A DNA stretch of 64,000 bases from Squalus acanthias (taxonomy: Eukaryota): assembly GCA_030390025.1 (NCBI GenBank), contig CM059432.1, positions 8,432,001-8,496,000 on the forward strand, in the 5' to 3' direction. Position numbers and translations under genes: made by a program. The notes beneath the pieces are model-generated. The model was given only the letters and a program-made list of their open reading frames with translations. It made no database searches and was not told the origin of the DNA. Each line of letters begins with the position of its first letter. The stretch's first letter is position 1. This document shows positions 256-58,667 of the stretch, piece by piece.

Positions 256-351
256 CTGCCTTGTCAGTTTGAGCGATTTCAGCGTTTTTCACTTGAAGGA
301 GTCTTCTGCCTCAGAAAAAATTATTCACTTTCATTTAGGTGAGATTTTAAA

Positions 352-1062
352 GTGCAACAATTCCATACTTCAATGGGGGCTGTACTGGTACTGGACCTCG
401 CCCTCCAGCGTCAACGTCGGAGGCAGCGGAGGCAGAGAGAGAGATTGCAAAATGTGGCCAGAAGGAGGAGGGCCAACAGGGCTCACAACAGGAGGCCTTA
501 CCCTCCCAGGGTATTCCGGCAGCCTTTCTCCTGCATCAATTTCACTGAGGACCAGTGTCTTAGAAGGCTCCGCTTCACCAAGGACGTGGTCACAGAGCTC
601 TGCCACCTCCTGCAGCCAGACCTCAAGCCTCGCATCAGGAGCACCACTGCTCTCTCAGTGGCAGTCAAGGTCACCGTCGCCCTCAATTTCTACACCTGCA
701 GATCCTCCCAGCGTGCAACAGGAGACATATCTAACATATCGCAGTTCGCCGTCCATTGCAGCATCCGCGAAGTCACAGCTGCTCGCTACAGAAGGAGAAG
801 GGACTACATTTCCTTCCCCATGACCAGAGAGATGCATCGCGAGCGTGCGTGTGGCTTTGCCAGGATAGTGAGCTTCCCCATGGTGCAGGGCGCCATTGAC
901 TGCACCCACGTCGCTTTGCGGGCACCGCATAACAATCCTGAGGTCTTCCGTAACTGCAAACGCTACCACTCACTTAATGTGCAGTTGGTGTGTGACCACA
1001 GACAACAAATCCTCACCGTCAATGCTCACTATCCTGGCAGCAGCCATGATGCCTTCATCCTG
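352..1062 (+). pseudogene. PIF/Harbinger (HARBI1-like) DDE transposase, N-terminal ~2/3, truncated by a CR1 insertion
   Basis: The ORF has CLRRLRFTK, the HTH segment KVTVALNFY..GDISNISQ, GAIDCTHV (1st catalytic D), YHSLNVQLVCD and YPGSSHDAFIL (2nd D). CR1 sequence begins immediately after. Confidence 0.9.
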
Positions 1063-1918
1063 GTAAGTGTTTCTAGTTAATAGTCCATAAAGTAAAGGCA
1101 TGGCAGGGCAGCTCAGCCCCGTGGAATGCACATCCTGTGCCATGTGGGAAGTCCTGGACGCTCCTCGTGGTCTGGACAACCACGTGTGTGGGAAGTGTCG
1201 CCAGCTACAGCAGCTCGAGATCCGTGTTTCGGAGCTTGAGCGGCGGCTGGAGTCACTGCAGAAAGGCAGAAAGAGGGATGAGGTCCTGCAGGCAGACTAT
1301 AGGGAGCTAGGAAAGAGATTAAAAAGCAGGGCCTCAAAGGTAGTAATCTCTGGATTACTCCCGGTATCATGTGTTAGTGAGTACAGGAACAGGAGGATAG
1401 AGCGGATGAATGCGTGGCTGGAGAGATGGTGCAGGAGGGAGGGCTTTAGGCATTGGGACTGGTTCTGGGGGAGGTGGGACCTGTACAGGCCGGACGGGTT
1501 GCACCTCAACAGGACCGGGACCAATATCCTCGCGGTGGGGTTTGCTAGTGCTGTTGGGGAGGGTTTAAACTAGCTTGGCAGGGGGATGGGAACCTGAGAG
1601 TGGATTCAGAAGGGAGAGATGCAAAGCTGGAAATGGAAGGCAGAAAATGAGTAAGCGAGTTTCGAAGGCAGAGGAAACAATCGCTAGAAAATAGACAACA
1701 AGGGAGTTTGGCAGTACTAAATGGTATACACTTCAACACAAGGAGTTTAGGGAATAAAACAGATGAGCTGAGGGCACAGATAGACACGTGGGAGTATGAT
1801 ATTATAGCTATTACTGAGACATGGCTGAAAGGAGGGCAGGAATGGCAGCTCAACATTCCTGGTTACAGGGTTTTCAGACGAGATAGAGAGGGGGATAAAA
1901 AAGGAGGGGGGGTCGCAA

Positions 1919-2001: not shown

Positions 2002-3826
2002 ATTGATTAAAGAATCAATTACAGCTGTGAGGAGGGAGGATATCTTAGAAGGATCATCCAATGAGGCCATATGGGTTGAACTGAAAAACAAAAAAGGGGC
2101 AGTCGCACTGCTGGGAGTGGACTATAGACCCCCAAACAGTCAGAGGGAGATAGAAGAGCAAATATGTAGGCAAATTTCTGAGACGTTCAAAACTAGGGCA
2201 GTGATAGTAGGGGATTTCAACTTCCCTAATATTAACTGGGATAAAATTAGTGTGAAAGGCAGAGAGGGAGCAAAATTCTTTTTTAACCAGTACGTAGCAA
2301 GCCCAACAAGAGAGGGGGCAGGTTCTGGACCTAGTTTTAGGGACTGAAGCTGGGCAGGTGGAAAGAGTATCAGTGGGAGAGCATATTGGTGGTAGTGATC
2401 ATAATTCAGATAGATTTAGTTATGGAAAAGGACAAGGATAGACCAGGAATAAAAGTTCTCAATTGGGGAAAAGCTAATTTTACTAAGCGGAGAGGTGATT
2501 TAGCCAAAGTGGACTGGAGACAGAAACTTAAAAGCTAAATCAGGGTCAGGGCAGTGGGAGGCATTCAAGGAGGAGATAGTGAGGGTTCAGAGCAAGTGTG
2601 TTCCCTTAAAGAAAAAGGGTGGGACTAACAAATCTAGAGTTCCCTGGATGTCAAGGGGCATACAGGGTAGGATAAAGAAAAAAAGGGAAGCTTATGACAG
2701 ATACCGAGGTCTCAATACTGCAGAAAGCTGAGAGGAGTATAGAAAGTGCAGGGGTGAAATTAAAAAGGAAATTAGGAAAGCAAAGAGAGGGCATGAAAAA
2801 TATTGGCAAGTAAAATCAAGGGAAACCCAAAGATGTTTTATAAATACATTCAGAGCAAGAGGATAACTAAAGTAAGAGTAGGGCCTATTAGGGACCATAA
2901 AGGCGGAAGACATGGAGATGGTTATTAATGAGTGTCTGTTTTCACAAACGAGAGGGATGTGGTGCCAGAGGACTGGAGGACTGCTAACATGGTACTGTTG
3001 TTTAAAAAGGGAGAAAGTGATAGACCGAGTAATTACAGGCCAGTCAGCCTAACCTCGGTGGTGGGAAAATTATTGGAAAAAATTATGAGGGACAGGATAA
3101 ATCTTCATTCAGAAAGACACGGATTAATCAGGGACAGCCAGCATGGATTTTTTAAGGGAAGGTCATGTCTGACTAATTGATTGAATTTTTTGAGGAGGTA
3201 ACAAGGAGGGTCGATGAGGGTAGTGCATTTGATGTAGTCTATACGGTTTTTAGCAAGGCTTTTGATAAGGTCCTGCATGGCAGACTGGTCACGAAAGTAA
3301 AAGCTCATGGGATCCAGGGCAAAGTGGCAAGTTGGATCCAAAATTGTCTCAGAGGCAGGAAACAAAGGGTAATGGTCGAAGGGTATTTTTTGACTGGAAG
3401 GCTGTTTCCAGTGGGGTTCCGCAGGGCTCAGTACTGGGTCCTTTGCTTTTTGTGGTATATATCAATGATTTGGATTTGAATGTAGAAAGTATGATTAAAA
3501 AGTTTGCAGATGATACAAAAATTGGCTGTGTGGTTGATACTGAAGAAGGAAGCTGTAGACTGCAGGAAGATATCAATGGACTGGTCAGGTGGGCAGAACA
3601 GTGGCAAATGGAATTCAATCTGGAGATGTGTGAGGTAATGCTTTTGGGGAGGACTAACAAGGCAAGGGAATAAACTATAAATGGTAGGACACTGAGAAGT
3701 GCAGAAGATCAGAGGGACCTTGGACTGCATGTCCACAGATCCCTGAAGGTAACAGGACAGGTAGATAAGGTGGTTAAGAAGGTATACGGGATACTTGCCT
3801 TTAATAGCTGAGGCATAGAATATAAG

Positions 3827-4146
3827 TGTGAGAAGTCGCACAACACCAGGTTATAGTCCAACAGCTTTATTTGAAATCACAAGCTTTCGGAGCGCTGCTC
3901 CTTCGTCAGGTGAAGTGAAGAGATGCATATAGGCACAGCATATATAGTCAGAGAACACTGCCAGATGATCATCTGGCAGTGTTCTCTGACTATATATGCT
4001 GTGCCTATATGCATCTCTTCACTTCACCTGACGAAGGAGCAGCGCTCCGAAAGCTTGTGATTTCAAATAAAGCTGTTGGACTATAACCTGGTGTTGTGCG
4101 ACTTCTCACAGTTGTCCACCCCAGTCCAACACCAGCATCTCCACAT
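3827..4146. mobile_element. Penelope-like pLTR fold-back insertion (perfect 284-bp palindrome 3827-4110 + 36-nt tail)
   Basis: Arms of 142 bp are exact reverse complements with no loop (centre CCAGATGA|TCATCTGG). 13-bp TSD CATAGAATATAAG at 3814-3826 and 4147-4159. Same sequence as the 3' end of the GIY-YIG element at 56733-57651. Confidence 0.9.
4024..4060 (+). ncRNA. Minimal type I hammerhead ribozyme motif (Penelope type); mirror copy on - strand at 3877-3913
   Basis: UCAC-CUGACGA-A-GGAGC-agc-GCUCC-GAAA-GC-UU-GUGA: helix I UCAC/GUGA, core CUGANGA...GAAA, 5-bp helix II, palindromic AGCU helix III. Confidence 0.75.
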
Positions 4147-4752
4147 CATAGAATATAAGAGCAGGGGGGTTATGCTTGAAATATATAAAACACTAGTTAG
4201 ACCGCAGCTAGAGTACTGTGTACAGTTCTGGTCACATTACAGGAAGGATGTGATTGCACTAGAGGGGGTGCAGAGCAGATTTACGAGGATGTTGCCTGGG
4301 CTGGGGAATTTTAGCTATGAGGAAAGATTGGATAGGCTGGGGTTGTTTTCTTTAGAACAGAGGAGGCTGAGGGGAGACCTAATTGAGGTGTATAAAATTA
4401 TGGGGCCTAGATAGAGTGGATAGGAAGGACCTATTTCCCTTAGCAGAGAGGTTAATAACCAGGTGGCATAGATTTAAAGTAATTGGTCAGAGGTTTAGAG
4501 GGAGTTGAGGAGAAATTTTTTCACCCACAGGGTTGTGGGGATCTGGAACTCACTGCCTGAAAGGGTGGTAGAGGCAGAAACCCTCATCGCATTTAAAAAG
4601 TACCTGGATATGCACTTGAATTGCTGTAACCTACAAGGCTATGGACCAAGTGCTGGAAAGTGGGATTAGGGTGGATAGCTCTTTGCTGGCCGGCGCTGAC
4701 AAGATGGGTCAAATGGCCTCCTTCTGTGCTTTAGATTTCTATGATTCTATGA

Positions 4753-5340
4753 CGTTGCCGACGGCCACGGCGCCCACCACTTGCTGTTGAATGACGCTCA
4801 ACACTCGCTCCTCCAGATCTGAGAGCTGCTGGGGCTGCGCATCACCCTCACCTGTTCTCTGCTGCTCCTTCCTATTGCGGGCCATCTTGGCCTGCAAGAG
4901 AGACAAACGTGTGTGAGTCAGAGTCCAGTTATGTGTTTGGGAGATATGTCTGCTGTAGTTGAATAGCTGTGATTGTAGGCAAGGCGTGAGATGTGGATGT
5001 GAGTTTTAGTAGGTGAAGATGTTTGGTGGGTGAGTGGTGGAGATGTGGTGGTTTGCGCAGTGTGCACAGACTGAGGTTCAGATGCTGGTATGTAGGACCT
5101 GTTGAAGCGAGTACTCACCCTGACCACCCGACTGAGGTTGTTGATTTTCTTCCGGCACTGTGTCAGGCTGTGTTCCACCACACTACTGGCCGAGACCTCC
5201 TGGGCCACTTCCCTCCACATTGCCCTGACCACCTGAGGCGATGACCTGTATCCAGTGTCCGGGAACAGCAGTGCCCTCCTTCGCTCCACTCCCGCGACCA
5301 ATGCCACGTCTGTGAACCGACGAGCTCTCTCCCTGGGAGT
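4753..5340 (-). pseudogene. Harbinger Myb/SANT-like DNA-binding gene, two exons (5119-~5340 and 4753-4891), truncated
   Basis: Exon 1 reads RERARRFTD..GVERRRALLFP..WREVAQEVSA..TQCRKKINNL. Donor GTGAGT at 5118 and acceptor TTGCAG at 4892 (phase 0, 227-bp intron). Exon 2 reads AKMARNRKEQQRTG. Confidence 0.85.
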
Positions 5341-5678
5341 GGGAAAATCCCACAGCCATCAGGGGATTGAGTTAGGTGCAGGTCACCTTCACAGCCAGCA
5401 ATGCTGATAATGAGGACCTGCACAATGATGCAACCTCCGCTTTAAGAGCTGGAAGGATCGTTGCTGAATGCATTGCACCTGAAATTCATTAGAGCTCTGC
5501 TGCTAGTGGCCCTGTAGCGCCCTAAAGAGGTCATTGGCACTTGATTTAGCGTTCCAGCTCTTTCCTGGAGCACTAACATCCAAGTTAGGTGAAGCTCAGA
5601 ATCATTAGCGCTGGCGCTAATTTTTCAAGATTTAAAAAATTAGCGCCCCAAGCGGGGCGATACCAAATTTTTCCCCCT
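5341..5678 (-). mobile_element. Harbinger right end (subterminal TAGCGCC repeats + terminal inverted repeat)
   Basis: Ends ...GGGGCGATACCAAATTTTTCCCCC. Repeated TAGCGC(C)/GGCGCTA motifs. Matches the ends of the MITEs at 46920 and 62131. Confidence 0.75.
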
Positions 5679-6588: not shown

Positions 6589-6904
6589 TGTGAGAAGTCG
6601 CACAACACCAGGTTATAGTCCAACAGCTTTATTTGAAATCACAAGCTTTTGGAGCGCTGCTCCTTCGTCAGGTGAAGTGAAGAGATGCATATAGTCACAG
6701 CATATATAGTCAGAGAACACTGCCAGATGACTATATATGCTCTCTGACTATACATGCTGTGCCTATATGCATCTCTTCACTTCACCTGACGAAGGAGCAG
6801 CGCTCCGAAAGCTTGTGATTTCAAATAAAGCTGTTGGACTATAACCTGGTGTTGTGCGACTTCTCACATTTGTCCACCCCCGTCCAACACCGGCATCTCC
6901 ACAT
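6589..6904. mobile_element. Penelope-like pLTR fold-back insertion, copy 2
   Basis: Same inverted arms and tail as 3827-4146. 13-bp TSD CATGTTTTATGAA at 6576-6588 and 6905-6917. Intact hammerhead motif at 6782-6818 (+); the left-arm copy has a core substitution. Confidence 0.9.
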
Positions 6905-22469: not shown

Positions 22470-23362
22470 GGCCCAAATCTTGCTGGAAAAGTAACGGCGG
22501 GTTCACGGCGCTACGCCGTTATTAGTGCGCAAAATCGGCCAGCAAGTTTACACGTAGAAGAGATTCGCCGTGAGCTGCGAATCGCCATAACTTGCTAGTC
22601 GATTTACGCTGATTGTCTTGCGCAAAGGGCCGCTCACACTCCACCTCCCCCGTTATTTTTAAGAACTCACTGGGTTTTCCCATTAAACTCGCCGCAGAAA
22701 GTTTGAGCTGGGACTTAACAGCTTTAATACCCTATTAACGACGTGATAATTGTTAATGCAATGCCGATCAACCTCTCCGGCCCAGAAAGTGAACAATTTA
22801 AACCGCGGAGTCTCATTCCTGCAGGTAGTAAATTCTTCTAAGAGATTTAAAAAATTTGACACTTTAAATTTTGTTTTTAATTCTTACTTTTCCTTCCTGT
22901 CCCTTTTTTTTCCTCTCTATCTTAATCCAATATTTCTTTCCCTCTCTTTATTTCTCTTTCTGTACCTAATTTGACTCTAATTCATCCTATTTCCCTTTCT
23001 GTCGTCCTCTGTTTCTTTCTCAATCCTTAAATCTCATTGTTTAAAAATGAGAAGTCGCACAACACCAGGTTATAGTCCAACAGTTTTATTTGAAATCACA
23101 AGCTTTCGGAGCTGCTGCTCCTTCGTCGGGTGAAGAGAAGAGATACAGAATCGCCAAAGCATATATAGATAGAGAACAATGCATGTGTACCTCATTGTTT
23201 AAGGAGCTTGACTGCTGGTCCCGTCGTTCACTAAGGTCCCAGATACCCCATTAGCACTTCCACCAATTTTCAGGGCAAAACGTTTTCAAGCTGAAGGGTG
23301 CAGGAAAAAGTCTAATTAATGGCACTTGCCACGAGACGCCCCACTCCAGCAGGATCTGAGCC
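22470..23362. mobile_element. Harbinger-type MITE
   Basis: TIR GGCCCAAATCTTGCTGG / CCAGCAGGATCTGAGCC; TSD ATT. Related to 49264-50017. Confidence 0.75.
23045..23190 (-). mobile_element. Penelope-like single pLTR fragment
   Basis: Same sequence as the palindrome arms. 12-bp TSD CTCATTGTTTAA (23033-23044 / 23191-23202). Hammerhead core mutated (CCGACGA). Confidence 0.85.
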
Positions 23363-32374: not shown

Positions 32375-32710
32375 GACGAGATGTTTCCACTTACGGGGGA
32401 GATCAGAACTAGGGGTCGTAAATATAAGATAGTCACTAATAAATCCAATAGGGAATTCAGGCGAAACTGCTTTACCCAGAGAGTGGTGAGAATGTGGAAC
32501 TCGCTACCACAGGGAGTGATTGAGGCGAATAGCAGAGATCCATTTAAGGAGAAGCTGGATAAGCACATGAGGGAGAAAGGAAGAGACAGATTTGTTGATG
32601 GGGTTCAATGAAGAAGGGTGAGGGAACGCTCGTGTGGAGCATAAACACCGACATGGACCTGTTGGGCCGAGTGTCCTGCTTCTGTGCTGCAAATACTTTG
32701 TAATACTTTT
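32375..32710 (+). mobile_element. CR1 3' fragment
   Basis: MFPLTGEIRTRG..TQRVVRMWNSLP. Confidence 0.85.
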
Positions 32711-32966
32711 AATGGAGTGGTTATTTGCAAGGTCTGTGACACCATCCCATGCCCACCAGAACCACGCATGCGCACCCGACATTGCGGCTGTGCACTGGAG
32801 GTTCCAAACACGCACGCACCTAGCCGCAGGGCTGCGGCCTTAACCACGCTTTGCTCCCTGTGGAGAAGGTCAGGGGATTGAAGGGTGGGGAGAGGAGAGG
32901 AGCTTGGAGGGGGGAGAGGAGAGGAGCTTGTGGCGGGGAGGGGGGGGGGGGGTGGGGGGGGTGGGG

Positions 32967-33517
32967 GAAGGTCAGGAATTCGGGGGGAGGGAAGAAAGAA
33001 GGTCAGGAACTCAGGGGGAGAGAAGGTCTGGAACTCAGGGGGAGAGAAGGTCAGGAACTGGGGGGGTGAGAAGGTCAGGAACTCGGAGAGAGAGAAGGTC
33101 AGGAACTCAGAGAGAGAGAAGGTCAGGAACTCAGGGGGAGAGAAGGTCAGGAACTGGGGGGGTGAGAAGGTTAGGAACTCGGAGAGAGAGAAGGTCAGGA
33201 ACTCGGAGAGAGAGAAGGTCAGGAACTCGGAGACAGAGAAGGTCAGGAACTCGGAGAGATAGAAGGTCAGGAACTCGGAGAGAGAGAAGGTCAGGAACTC
33301 GGAGAGAGAGAAGGTCAGGAACTCGGAGAGAGAGAAGGTCAGGAACTCGGAGAGAGAGAAGGTCAGGAATTCGGAGAGAGAGAAGGTCAGGAACTCGGAG
33401 AGAGAGAAGGTCAGGAACTCGGAGAGAGAGAAGGTCAGGAACTCGGAGAGAGAGAAGGTCAGGAACTCGGAGAGAGAGAAGGTCAGGAACTCGGAGAGAG
33501 AGAAGGTCAGGAACTCG
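32967..33517. repeat. 24-bp minisatellite (GAGAAGGTCAGGAACTCGGAGAGA), ~23 units
   Basis: Direct head-to-tail units with no spacers. Confidence 0.95.
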
Positions 33518-33684
33518 GCGGGGGGCAAGCACCCAGAGAACAGTGGAGATGGGAGAAGAACTTAATCCAGGTCTAAAAGGGTGTGGGTGGGGGGGGGGAA
33601 GGATGAGAGCGAGAACGTGATCGAGATGGGAAGATGGATCACATTCACCCCCTCTGTTAGACATGGATCACATTCTTCCAACCG

Positions 33685-34048
33685 GATGAATTAGTGAATC
33701 CCTTCTCACACACTGAGCAGGTGAACAGCCTCTCCCCAGTGTGAACTCGCTCGTGTGCCAGCAGGTTGTTGGATCGAATGAATCCCTTCCTACTCACGGA
33801 GCAGGGAAACGGCCTCTCTCCAGTGTGAGTACGCTGGTGTATCGTCAGACTCCCGGGGCTTTTAAAGCTCTTCCCATAGCCAGAGCATTAAAAACAATCT
33901 CTCATCAATGTGAACCCACTGGTGTGTCAGCAGGTTGGATGTCAGAGTGAATCCCTTTCTACACACGGAACAGGTGAAAGAACTGCCTCTGGTGTGACTG
34001 AGCCGATGAACTTTCAACACAGATGGGGAACTGAATTCCTTTCCACCC
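33685..34048 (-). pseudogene. Degenerate C2H2 zinc-finger array (~4-5 fingers)
   Basis: Minus strand reads GKEFSSPSVLKVHRLSHT, FTCSVCRKGFTLTSNLLTHQWVH, (frameshift) [44 protein letters not shown]. Confidence 0.85.
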
Positions 34049-35893
34049 CACACACACGCACCCCACACAACACACCACACACACACACACACACACCCCA
34101 CACAGACACACCCCACACACACACACCCACACACACACCCCTCACACACACCCCACACACACACACACCCCACACTCACACACCCCACACTCACACACAC
34201 CCCACACACACACACCCCACACACACGCACCCCACACACACCCCCCACACACACACACTCCACACACACGCACCCCACACACACACACCCCACACAGACA
34301 CACCCCACCCACACACCCCACACACACACACCCCACACACACATCCCACACACACACACCCCACACAGACACACCCCACCCACACACCCACACACACACA
34401 CCCCACACACACACCCCACACACACACACACCCCACACACACACCCCACACACACACACCCCACACACACACACCCCACACACACCACCCCACACACACA
34501 CACCCCACACACACACCACCCACACACACACACCCCACACACACACCCCACACACACACACCCCACACACACACCCCACACACACACCACACACCCACCC
34601 CACACACACACCCCACACACACACACCCACACACACACACCCCACACACACACACCCCACACACACACACCCCACACACACACACCCCACACACACACCC
34701 CACACACACACCCCACACACACACACCCCACACAGACACACCCCACACACACACCCCACACACACACCCCACACACACACCCACACACACACACCCCACA
34801 CAGACACACCCCACACACACACACCCCACACACACCCCACACACACACCCCACACACACACACCCCACACTCACACACCCCACACTCACGCACCCCCACA
34901 CACACACCCCACACACACACCACCCACACACACACACCCCACACACACTCACACACATCCCACACACACACACCCCACACACACACACCCCACACAGACA
35001 CACCCCACCCACACACACACACATCCCACACACACACACCCCACACACACACACACATCCCACACACACACACCCCACACACACACACCCCACACAGACA
35101 CACCCCACACACACACCCCACACACACACACACATCCCACACACACACACCCCACACAGACACACTCCACACACACACACACCCCACACACACACACCCC
35201 ACACACACACCCCACACACACACACACATCCCACACACACACACCCCACACAGACACACCCCACACACACACACACACACCCCACACAGACACACCCCAC
35301 ACACACACACCCCACACACACCCCTCACACACACGCACCCCACACACACACACCCCACACACACACACCCCACACAGACACACCCCACACACACACACCC
35401 CACACACACACACCCCACACACACACACCCCACACACACCCCACACACACACCCCACACACACACCCCACACACACACCCCACACACACACCCCACACAC
35501 ACACCCCACACACACACACCCCACACAGACACACCCCACACACACACACACCCCACACACACACACCCCACACTCACACACCCCACACAGACACACCCCA
35601 CACACACACACCCCACACTCAAGTACCCCACACACACACCCCACACACACACCCCACACACACACCCCACACACACACCCCACACACACACCCCACACAC
35701 ACACCCCACACACACACACCCCACACACACACCCCACACACACACACCCCACACACACACCCCACACACACACACCCCACACTCAAGTACCCCACACACA
35801 CACCCCACACACACACCCCACACACACACCCCACACACACACACCCCACACACACACCCCACACACACACCCCACACACACACACCCCACACA
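34045..35893. repeat. ~1.85-kb compound (CA)n/CCCCACACACACA microsatellite-like array
   Basis: Directly visible; occasional CAGA, CTCA and CTCAAGTA variants. Confidence 0.98.
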
Positions 35894-36087
35894 GGCACGG
35901 TGATGATCTTATTGAATGGTGGAGCAGGCTCAAGGGGCCATGTGGCCTACTCCTGCTCCTATTTCTTATGTTCTTACATTCTTATGAACCACACATTATG
36001 AAAAACAGCTAAGCATCTGGGGATAATACATTTTACAAGGAAAGGAAAAGATGAAAAAATGTTTTACATTGTAGGATCGACAAAGGA

Positions 36088-56462: not shown

Positions 56463-56732
56463 TTTCTCGTTAGACATTAAAGCCGATCAAGCATCACATT
56501 AGGAAGTTCTGCTCATCACAGCAGATCTGCACCTGCCTAACACCCACCTCCAGCAGGGATTGTGAGATAGTGGCTAGAAAGAAGTAGGAACCCTGGCAGC
56601 TTTCTCCTTGCTAACGCTAGCACACCAAGACCTATTGCAGCACCCCAGCCAACACCCTAGACAGACCAGAGATTGAACTTGAGACCATTACGGCCTGCAT
56701 TGGTTCCATTGCTCACTGCCAAAGCTTGTTGA

Positions 56733-57651
56733 CAAAAGTGAGAAGTCGCACAACACCAGGTTATAGTCCAACAGCTTTATTTGAAATCACAAGCTTTCGG
56801 AGCGGCTGCTCCTTCGTCAGGTGAAGTGAAGAAATACAAATGGGCACAGCATATATAGTCAGAGAACAATGCCTGTGCAGAGAACAATGCCAGACGACTA
56901 CAGTTAATCTTTCTAACTGCCCTTTATCACACCTCGGCAGAGAGACAATCACGGCAATCAAAGGTGTGGATGGTGTCCAACCAGGTCAGTCAGGAAGACA
57001 TTACATCAAAGACAATGGCAAAATACAACAAAGACAATGAGGTGGGGTCACAAGGGGTCTAATGTGGCAGATGTTGCAGTCTGTATGGAAAACCAAAAAC
57101 TTTAAACTTTTTACTTTTTTTACTGGAAATCACAGCAGGTCCGGCCGCATCTGTGAACAAGCCAACGACGACTCGAGTCTGGATGACTCTACGTCAGGTG
57201 GGGTTACATGTAGCGTGACATGAACCCAAGATCCCGGTTGAGGCCGTCCTCATGGGTGCGGAACTTGGCTATCAGTTTCTGCTCGATGATTTTGCGTTGT
57301 CGTGTGTCTCGAAGGCCGCCTTGGAGAACGCTTACCCGAAGATCGGAGGCTGAATGTCCTTGACTGCTGAAGTGTTCCCCGACTGGGAGGGAACACTCCT
57401 GCCTGGCGATTGTTGCGCGGTGCCCGTTCATACGTTGTCGCAGTGTCTGCATGGTCTCGCCGATGTAACATGCTCCGGGGCATCCTTTCCTGCAATGTAT
57501 GAGGTAGACAACGTTGGCCGAGTCACATGAGTATGTACCATGTACCTGGTGGGTAGTGTCCTCACGTGTGATGATGGTATCTGTGTTGATGATCTGGCAT
57601 GTCTTGCAGAGGTTGCCGTGGCAGGGTTCCGTGGTGTCGTGGTCGCTGTTG
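56733..57651 (-). mobile_element. Penelope-like element, 5'-truncated (GIY-YIG endonuclease + 3'UTR + pLTR with hammerhead at 56787-56824)
   Basis: 10-bp TSD AGCTTGTTGA (56723-56732 / 57652-57661). pLTR matches the palindrome arms. Confidence 0.92.
57204..57651 (-). CDS. Penelope GIY-YIG endonuclease domain (C-terminal fragment of the RT-EN polyprotein; open to the stop codon)
   Basis: PCHGNLCKTC Cys linker, NVVYLIHC..C..YIGET..LRQRMNGH, VGEHF..GH, IEQKLI..GLN. Confidence 0.9.
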
Positions 57652-58339: not shown

Positions 58340-58667
58340 CATGATGCGGAGATGCCGGTGTTGGACTGGGGTGGACAAATGTGAGAAGTCGCACAACACC
58401 AGGTTATAGTCCAACAGCTTTATTTGAAATCACAAGCTTTCGGAGCTGCTGCTCCTTCGTCAGGTGAAGTGAAGAGATGCATATAGGCACAGCATATAGG
58501 GCAGTTAGAAAGATTAACTGTAGTCGTCTGGCGGTGTTCTCTGACTATATATGCTGTGCCCAAATGCATTTCTTCACTTCACCTGACGAAGGAGCAGCGC
58601 TCCGAAAGCTTGTGATTTCAAATAAAGCGGTTGGACTATAACCTGGTGTTGTGCGACTTCTCACTTT
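58340..58667. mobile_element. Penelope-like pLTR fold-back insertion, copy 3 (tail on the left)
   Basis: Inverted arms with an asymmetric centre. Flanking duplication CATCTAATGT[G/T]TGC (58326-58339 / 58668-58681). Hammerhead motifs at 58430-58467 (-) and 58579-58615 (+). Confidence 0.88.

What the first reader, a model, noticed from the sequence alone, without database searches (positions are those of the whole stretch)
3827..4146. Perfect 284-bp loopless palindrome with a hammerhead ribozyme motif on each strand
Seen: two exact 142-bp inverted arms, a 36-nt unique tail and a 13-bp TSD, so this is a single young insertion. Each arm contains UCAC-CUGACGA-A-GGAGC..GCUCC-GAAA-GCUU-GUGA (4024-4060 +, 3877-3913 -). 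Established: Penelope-like elements carry minimal type I hammerheads in their pLTRs, have a short tail extension, and can insert as inverted structures. Inference: transcription from either strand gives an RNA that can fold either as one long dsRNA hairpin or expose a self-cleaving motif. That makes it a non-coding, orientation-independent ribozyme/dsRNA cassette that could cut, edit or silence host pre-mRNA, and a possible cruciform DNA site.
Basis: partly seen in the sequence, partly recalled or inferred. Interest (0 to 1): 0.78.

Follow-up and report, generated by a model that had tools for sequence, protein, structure and literature searches.

The report
Back-to-back Penelope retroelement end copies
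The palindrome is two back-to-back copies of the end of a very abundant Penelope-like jumping gene, an arrangement already described and repeated in thousands of places in this genome, likely made when both cut DNA ends were used to copy the element's RNA, and its ribozyme motifs are predicted to be locked in a hairpin in any read-through transcript.

Summary
In detail: exact 142-bp arms, a 36-nt tail, a 13-bp target duplication, and a minimal hammerhead motif on each strand. It is an ordinary 5'-truncated, head-to-head insertion of a Poseidon-type Penelope-like element (PLE) into a decayed LINE. The motif has 13,179 exact copies. 47 of 73 sampled insertions are inverted pairs, 45 with one tailed and one tail-less arm; 3 of 39 simple pairs are loopless. 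This junction occurs once, so it is not a spreading cassette. Inverted pLTRs, tails, junction palindromes and opposite-strand hammerhead pairs are in print, and this scan had already noted the family's hammerheads elsewhere in this genome. The functional reading is weak: on either strand the antisense arm is transcribed first and the hairpin wins by 69 kcal/mol. One family-level result was not found in my searches: arm 5' ends pile up at a TCA(+1)CT site 30 nt after a TATA box, mostly with an extra G (2,817 G against 318 A and at least 130 T). This suggests copying of a capped sense RNA from both DNA ends. The same test failed in a sister subfamily.

The parts
3814..3826 (.). Left copy of the 13-bp target-site duplication
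   Evidence: In simple inverted insertions of the family, 26 of 39 have a detected duplication of 12-14 bp.
3827..3968 (-). Tail-less arm: 142-nt 5'-truncated pLTR copy, ending at the family's short 3' site
   Evidence: The same end point recurs in most inverted copies.
3877..3913 (-). Minimal type I hammerhead motif; predicted cut after 3881
   Evidence: Cleavage untested.
3912..3946 (-). Mirror copy of the putative TATA box (3946-3940) and initiator (A at 3916), facing left
   Evidence: Promoter activity is inferred, not tested.
3968..3969 (.). Junction: the self-complementary AT can be read as belonging to either arm (2-nt microhomology), which leaves no loop
   Evidence: family sequence continuing on both sides. 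Junction found once in the genome.
3969..4110 (+). Tailed arm: 142-nt 5'-truncated pLTR copy
   Evidence: 98-99% identical to the other 39 near-full-length matches scored.
3991..4023 (+). Putative pLTR core promoter: TATATAT (3991-3997) and TCACT initiator (A at 4021, 30 nt downstream)
   Evidence: Family arm ends pile up at this A with an extra G. A start site is inferred.
4024..4060 (+). Minimal type I hammerhead motif; predicted cut after 4056
   Evidence: Helix I pair C-G changes to U-A across subfamilies. Cleavage untested.
4111..4146 (+). 36-nt PLE tail, ending just before the element's start codon; 4111 carries a private G (T in 28 of 29 close copies)
4147..4159 (.). Right copy of the target-site duplication; its first three bases CAT match the element's continuation
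3300..4700 (+). Host: decayed LINE reverse-transcriptase remnant (CR1-type by recalled motifs), interrupted by the insert; limits shown are those examined
   Evidence: stops and frameshifts; RVT_1 E=1.2e-10 for 3302-3670; up to 88% identity to other copies in the sample.

Best explanation
The feature is a young, 5'-truncated, head-to-head insertion of two pLTR end copies of a high-copy Poseidon-type Penelope-like retrotransposon, likely made by reverse transcription primed from both ends of one staggered DNA cut, and it likely has no selected function. Steps: (1) The element's endonuclease cuts both strands 13 nt apart (the duplication is shown; the enzyme is inferred from PMC11167929). (2) One 3' end primes copying at the long internal site at the start codon and gives the tailed arm; the other primes at the short site 36 nt upstream and gives the tail-less arm (both end points are shown genome-wide; priming is inferred). 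(3) The two antisense cDNAs are joined by microhomology, here at a self-complementary AT at the same position in both, which leaves no loop (junction shown; joining inferred). (4) The template of this copy began upstream of the pLTR initiator, so both arms keep TATA, initiator and hammerhead; many shorter family copies stop at the initiator with an extra G, likely a copied cap. (5) A read-through RNA would fold as one 142-bp hairpin that sequesters both ribozymes (predicted).
For: Family identity: long copies run into an RT plus GIY-YIG-type ORF (RVT_1 E=2.4e-5, below the curated cut-off), and the ORF starts right after the tail. Abundance: 13,179 exact motif copies; 68,929 exact matches of a 30-mer shared by both arm types. 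Architecture: of 73 insertions behind the first 100 of those matches, 45 are tailed/tail-less inverted pairs, 1 tailed/tailed, 1 tailed/intermediate, 0 tail-less/tail-less, 26 single. Either arm can be the longer one, which simple fold-back of one cDNA cannot give. Arm 5' ends are correlated (Spearman 0.57, n=31) and agree on passing the initiator (20 both short, 9 both long, 3 mixed of 32; P about 0.001 after dropping 3 repeated junctions). Pile-up at the initiator A: 10 of 57 ends in 121 positions. Base before that A: family C 14,837, G 2,817, A 318, T at least 130; one base further upstream only 648 departures, G in 44 of the first 100. 39 of 40 inspected G cases are junctions, not point changes. 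Folding energies. Print: PMC3846280, PMC8557442, PMC4209133, PMC11167929.
Against: No biochemical or RNA evidence for any step. The initiator/extra-G prediction failed in subfamily B: 99 departures at its TCA(+1)CAG site, G 21, A 30, T 48, so the start-site reading does not generalise as predicted. In 17 of 40 G cases the G is also templated by the partner arm. T at that position is a lower bound because a subfamily variant had to be excluded. In vitro, the lizard PLE shows no strand difference in start-site use (PMC11167929), so the strict tailed/tail-less pairing is unexplained by that assay. The sample comes from the first 5.5 Mb of one contig and holds 3 repeated junctions. Pfam gave no GIY-YIG match at E<=0.001; that label rests on recalled motifs. 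The centre of this locus was not confirmed in independent reads.
Confidence: 0.85

Rival explanations
1. Functional orientation-independent ribozyme/dsRNA cassette that cuts, edits or silences host pre-mRNA.
For: The motif is intact and covaries across subfamilies. A read-through RNA would be a perfect 142-bp duplex. Inverted Penelope regions give siRNAs in transformed Drosophila (PMC3681739, passages).
Against: The ribozyme is predicted to be sequestered on both strands. Single minimal hammerheads showed no cleavage in vitro (PMC4209133) and the lizard one needs the PLE protein (PMC11167929). The structure is mass-produced. The insert lies in a LINE remnant and no host exon was identified (short exons were not examined). 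The covariation reflects selection on the element, not on this copy.
Confidence: 0.05
2. Same insertion, but made by self-priming on an antisense template or by fold-back of one cDNA, as proposed for rotifer PLEs.
For: PMC3846280 (Discussion, read) reads junction palindromes as self-priming. This locus is perfectly symmetric, and the two arm ends are correlated.
Against: The tail-less arm is sometimes far longer than the tailed arm and sometimes shorter. Arms end at a sense-strand initiator with an extra G. Both outer ends sit on the two sense-template start sites, matching the two in vitro start sites of PMC11167929. Only 3 of 39 simple pairs are loopless.
Confidence: 0.12
3. The copy works as an accidental divergent promoter: each arm keeps TATA and initiator facing outwards, and an RNA started there carries an unsequestered hammerhead at its 5' end. 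This adds to the best explanation and does not exclude it.
For: TATA-to-initiator spacing is 30-33 nt in four subfamilies. An RNA starting at 4021 folds into helices I and II at almost no cost (-31.7 against -30.9 kcal/mol).
Against: Only 53 nt upstream of the start are kept per arm. No RNA evidence. A monomer is not expected to cleave (PMC4209133). The subfamily B test failed.
Confidence: 0.1
4. Fold-back assembly artefact.
For: Perfect loopless symmetry; no listed contig piece spans the centre.
Against: A 13-bp duplication on both sides, a tail on one arm only, a host frame that rejoins, and a family-typical junction. Arm-to-arm joints at many other positions appear in contigs of 4 independent runs.
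Confidence: 0.02

Closest known systems
Endonuclease-containing Penelope/Poseidon PLE insertions with an inverted 5'-truncated pLTR and an optional 30-40-bp tail (Arkhipova et al. 2013, PMC3846280; Craig et al. 2021, PMC8557442)
   Same: Head-to-head inverted pLTR copies, tail on one end, target duplication, palindromes at the junction, TATA plus TCACT initiator in the pLTR.
   Different: Here only the two pLTR ends were inserted (no ORF), the junction has no loop, and the structure is present in tens of thousands of copies by extrapolation. The data favour priming from both DNA ends on sense RNA over the proposed antisense self-priming.
[quoted passage not shown]
   Same: Type I core without helix III, 4-bp helix I, extra base between positions 9 and 10.1, G10.1-C11.1 pair, palindromic 15-16 segment. 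Pairs 100-700 bp apart on opposite strands were already noted in Schistosoma.
   Different: Helix II is 5 bp (7-8 bp in the Schistosoma families). Cleavage triplet CUU. Activity untested here.
Poseidon of Anolis carolinensis, PAc (Frangieh et al. 2024, PMC11167929)
   Same: Two internal RT start sites that bracket the tail; both DNA strands cut and extended; uncleaved hammerhead-bearing RNA as template.
   Different: In PAc the ORF starts inside the hammerhead and the start sites lie in the ORF; here the ORF starts right after the tail. The paper reports no strand preference for the two sites, whereas 45 of 47 inverted pairs here use one of each.
LINE-1 twin priming and cap-derived extra G (PMC11702581, passages)
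   Same: A second reverse transcription from the reciprocal DNA end, microhomology at the inversion junction, an extra G at full-length 5' ends.
   Different: L1 inversions copy adjacent, nearly non-overlapping parts of one RNA; here both primers copy the same segment and give an inverted duplication.

Membership tests
Penelope/Poseidon EN+ PLE | Parent ORF with RT followed by a C-terminal GIY-YIG endonuclease | tested here: inconclusive
   RT: RVT_1 E=2.4e-5 on a partial ORF, below the cut-off. The C-terminal domain reads as GIY-YIG by recalled motifs, but Pfam gave no hit. No tree was built, so 'Poseidon' is by resemblance.
Penelope/Poseidon EN+ PLE | pLTR: the 3' repeat also stands before the ORF | tested here: met
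   The repeat follows the ORF stop and precedes the start codon in L211 and L254.
Penelope/Poseidon EN+ PLE | 30-40-bp tail on one end | tested here: met
   36 nt here; one tailed arm in 45 of 47 inverted pairs.
Penelope/Poseidon EN+ PLE | Inverted 5'-truncated copy adjacent at the 5' end, with target duplication | tested here: met
min-HHR (type I) | Core CUGANGA and GAAA, extra base 9/10.1, G10.1-C11.1, helices I and II, palindromic 15-16 segment | tested here: met
   Among 228 motif contexts in held DNA the helix I pair is C-G in 163, U-A in 45, U-G in 6, other in 14 (related copies, so few independent events).
min-HHR (type I) | Self-cleavage (as a dimer or with protein help) | not testable with these tools
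   Needs an assay. RNAcofold of two monomers did not give the double-hammerhead fold as its minimum, which is not a test of activity.
Rfam hammerhead families | Match to a curated model | tested here: not met
   No hammerhead match at E<=1 in 2500-5500.
Non-LTR retrozyme | Head-to-tail tandem monomers with same-strand hammerheads | tested here: not met
   The two motifs are on opposite strands, head to head.
MITE or self-propagating palindromic cassette | Many copies sharing one internal structure | tested here: not met
   This junction: 1 locus genome-wide. Junctions vary from copy to copy.
miRNA precursor | Rfam gathering score | tested here: not met
   Best 53.2 bits against a cut-off of 76; hairpin-only matches.

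The most novel reading that the evidence does not exclude
The family records the PLE mechanism in the genome. A PLE dimer primes both ends of its cut on a capped sense RNA, with one active site at the long start and one at the short start. It copies through the uncleaved hammerhead to the cap, adds the cap as an extra base, and joins the two cDNAs. This would explain the tail asymmetry and the inverted repeats of PLEs in general, locate the start site at the pLTR initiator, and displace the antisense self-priming model. Copies such as this one, which keep TATA and initiator in both arms, would be mass-produced divergent mini-promoters.
Probability: 0.5. Interest if true: 0.55.

Novelty: new member of a known kind. 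Interest (0 to 1): 0.27.

Why it matters
The locus itself matters little: it is one of roughly 30,000 inverted insertions and roughly 2,000 loopless ones by extrapolation from a 73-insertion sample. The family matters more. How PLEs make inverted repeats and tails, and whether they copy sense or antisense RNA, was left open in PMC3846280 and PMC8557442. The strict tailed/tail-less pairing and the extra-G pile-up give precise predictions for the existing in vitro PLE system. The many hairpins are also a possible bulk source of dsRNA and of cruciform-prone DNA, untested here.

Tried and rejected
Rfam scan: no hammerhead model matched; the miRNA hits are hairpin artefacts. Self-propagating cassette: rejected, junction unique. 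Assembly artefact: unlikely on structural grounds, but not directly tested; the contig lay was swamped by family copies, and a second lay on raw reads and RNA contigs did not complete, so there is no expression evidence and no second-species check of the pile-up. Subfamily B initiator test: prediction not met. First BLAST-based 5' ends were misleading because subfamilies diverge upstream; they were redone against 12 real reference copies, which missed a few arms with a changed anchor. The sigma-70 promoter scan is irrelevant to a eukaryote and was ignored. RNAcofold did not recover a double-hammerhead. Literature searches that found no report of cap copying or twin priming in PLEs, or of this family; the library lacks most subscription papers, including Arkhipova 2006 and Evgen'ev and Arkhipova 2005, and the supplements of PMC11167929 and PMC4209133 were not opened. 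Earlier-findings look-ups by words and by sequence returned nothing.

Full report
Observation. The arms are exact over 142 nt (3827-3968, 3969-4110) with no spacer, followed by a 36-nt tail and flanked by a 13-bp duplication. It is the only perfect palindrome with arms of 10 nt or more in the window. The hammerhead-like motif is at the stated places. With the insert and one duplication copy removed, the flanks read as one decayed LINE RT frame (RVT_1 E=1.2e-10). Rfam has no hammerhead match at E<=1.

What it is. The arm plus tail matches four other loci in the same window. Genome-wide, the 36-nt motif has 13,179 exact copies and a 30-mer common to both arm types has 68,929. Long copies continue upstream into an ORF with RT and a C-terminal domain that reads as GIY-YIG (RVT_1 E=2.4e-5, no Pfam endonuclease hit). 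In two tandem copies the ORF's start codon follows the tail directly. So the sequence is the pLTR end of a Penelope-like element, Poseidon-type by resemblance; no tree was built.

The palindrome is the family's normal product. I took all of the first 100 matches of the 30-mer (first 5.5 Mb of contig C1), which belong to 73 insertions. Of these, 45 are inverted pairs with one tailed and one tail-less arm, 1 is tailed/tailed, 1 tailed/intermediate, none tail-less/tail-less, and 26 are single. Among 39 simple two-piece pairs, 26 have a 12-14-bp duplication and 3 have a loopless centre. Scaling up gives roughly 50,000 insertions, 30,000 inverted and 2,000 loopless; this is a rough extrapolation from one region and includes older subfamilies. 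1,684 loci have two motifs back to back within 30 nt. The junction of this locus occurs once. It lies on a self-complementary AT that either arm can supply. The arms have no differences, and the right side differs from 28 of 29 close copies at one base, so the insertion is young; I did not date it. Contigs of 4 runs show hundreds of joints, and the 15 listed are mostly arm-to-arm turns at other positions; no listed piece spans this centre.

What is in print. PMC3846280 (passages and Discussion read) describes inverted pLTRs, the optional tail, junction palindromes and a TATA plus TCACT initiator, and proposes self-priming on an antisense template while leaving sense templates open. PMC8557442 (passages) calls the inverted 5'-truncated copy frequent and its mechanism undefined. 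PMC4209133 (parts 1-2 of 4 read) defines minimal hammerheads in pLTRs, notes pairs 100-700 bp apart on opposite strands, and found no cleavage by a single motif and low cleavage by dimers. PMC11167929 (parts 1-2 of 4 read) shows that a lizard PLE cuts and extends both strands, starts at two internal sites bracketing the tail, uses uncleaved RNA, and that its hammerhead needs the protein. PMC3681739 (passages) reports siRNAs from inverted Penelope regions. PMC2377424 and bioRxiv 10.64898/2026.07.22.740005 (passages) and PMC6431247 and PMC6155905 (passages) added nothing specific to this structure.

The ribozyme. The motif meets the minimal-hammerhead description, and one helix I pair changes from C-G to U-A between subfamilies (163 and 45 of 228 contexts; few independent events). 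At this locus the arms point outwards, so a read-through RNA on either strand makes the complement first. The hairpin is -283.0 kcal/mol against -214.1 with the ribozyme enforced. An RNA that starts at 4021 folds as the ribozyme almost freely (-31.7 against -30.9). Each strand has one motif, so no tandem partner exists in cis. Cutting of host pre-mRNA is therefore unlikely; dsRNA is plausible if the site is transcribed, which I could not show. ORFs of 150 aa or more in the window look like transposon remnants or low-complexity sequence, but an intron of a large gene is not excluded.

Mechanism. The tail-less arm can be much longer or shorter than the tailed one, which excludes simple fold-back of one cDNA. 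Both outer ends sit on fixed sites 36 nt apart. The simplest reading is priming from both 3' overhangs, one at each start site, then joining by microhomology. The two 5' ends are correlated (Spearman 0.57, n=31), and whether they pass the initiator is coupled (20 both short, 9 both long, 3 mixed; P about 0.001 with 3 repeated junctions dropped), which fits one RNA or one RNA class for both arms.

A side result. Arm 5' ends pile up at one base: 10 of 57 ends within 121 positions (72 arms of the related subfamilies in all). That base is the A of TCACT, 30 nt after TATATAT (window 4021; 30-33 nt in four subfamilies). The base before it is the family's C in 14,837 places, G in 2,817, A in 318 and T in at least 130. 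One base upstream there are 648 departures, with G in 44 of the first 100. I inspected 40 of the 2,817 G cases: 39 are junctions; the G is partner-templated in 17, lies in filler in 17 and abuts non-partner DNA in 6. An extra G marks cap copying in LINE-1 (PMC11702581, passages). I infer that short copies are complete reverse transcripts of the 5' leader of a capped sense RNA, read through an uncleaved hammerhead. Against this: the same test in subfamily B gave 99 departures with G 21, A 30, T 48, so either its start lies elsewhere or the signal has another cause, such as terminal addition of C at a defined RNA end. I found no report of this for PLEs, within the limits of the library.

Verdict. 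The feature is real and correctly described but ordinary: a new member of a known kind, with no evidence of a function of its own. The interest lies in what the family shows about PLE insertion, which is partly supported and testable.

Noticed in passing
window 6589-6904; 58344-58664; 56728-57650; 23048-23182: Four more copies of the same family in the window: two inverted tailed/tail-less pairs with target duplications, one longer tail-less copy reaching into the ORF end, and one short single copy.
   Followed up: yes
G000:C1:2938159 and C1:3041719 (L175, L176): Two insertions with different target duplications share one junction including its filler, but the tail is on opposite arms. Local gene conversion or re-copying of a junction-bearing RNA could explain it.
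   Followed up: partly
L227, L228, L229 (G000:C1:3433143, 3966991, 3983681): One junction plus a private base change is shared by insertions at two different target sites (the last two loci are duplicates of each other). It occurs only 3 times in the genome, all within 550 kb.
   Followed up: partly
L009:1243-1290 and other long copies: A second, degenerate hammerhead-like hairpin directly after the ORF stop codon, with both core boxes altered.
   Followed up: no
L252, L253, L254 (subfamily B pLTR): Subfamily B has a different upstream pLTR with a splice-acceptor-like pyrimidine tract and CAG just before helix I, recalling the intron end at helix I reported for Drosophila Penelope (PMC4209133). 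Its initiator test failed.
   Followed up: partly
L211: Tandem copy in which the first unit runs about 70 nt into the ORF and is followed by G plus the initiator of a second unit, consistent with a template jump at the RNA 5' end.
   Followed up: partly
window 32605-33667 and 33862-36012: Two low-complexity arrays, the second a CA-rich repeat of about 2 kb, next to a short C2H2 zinc-finger-like remnant on the minus strand.
   Followed up: no
window 343-1080: Harbinger-type transposase remnant, by recalled motifs.
   Followed up: no
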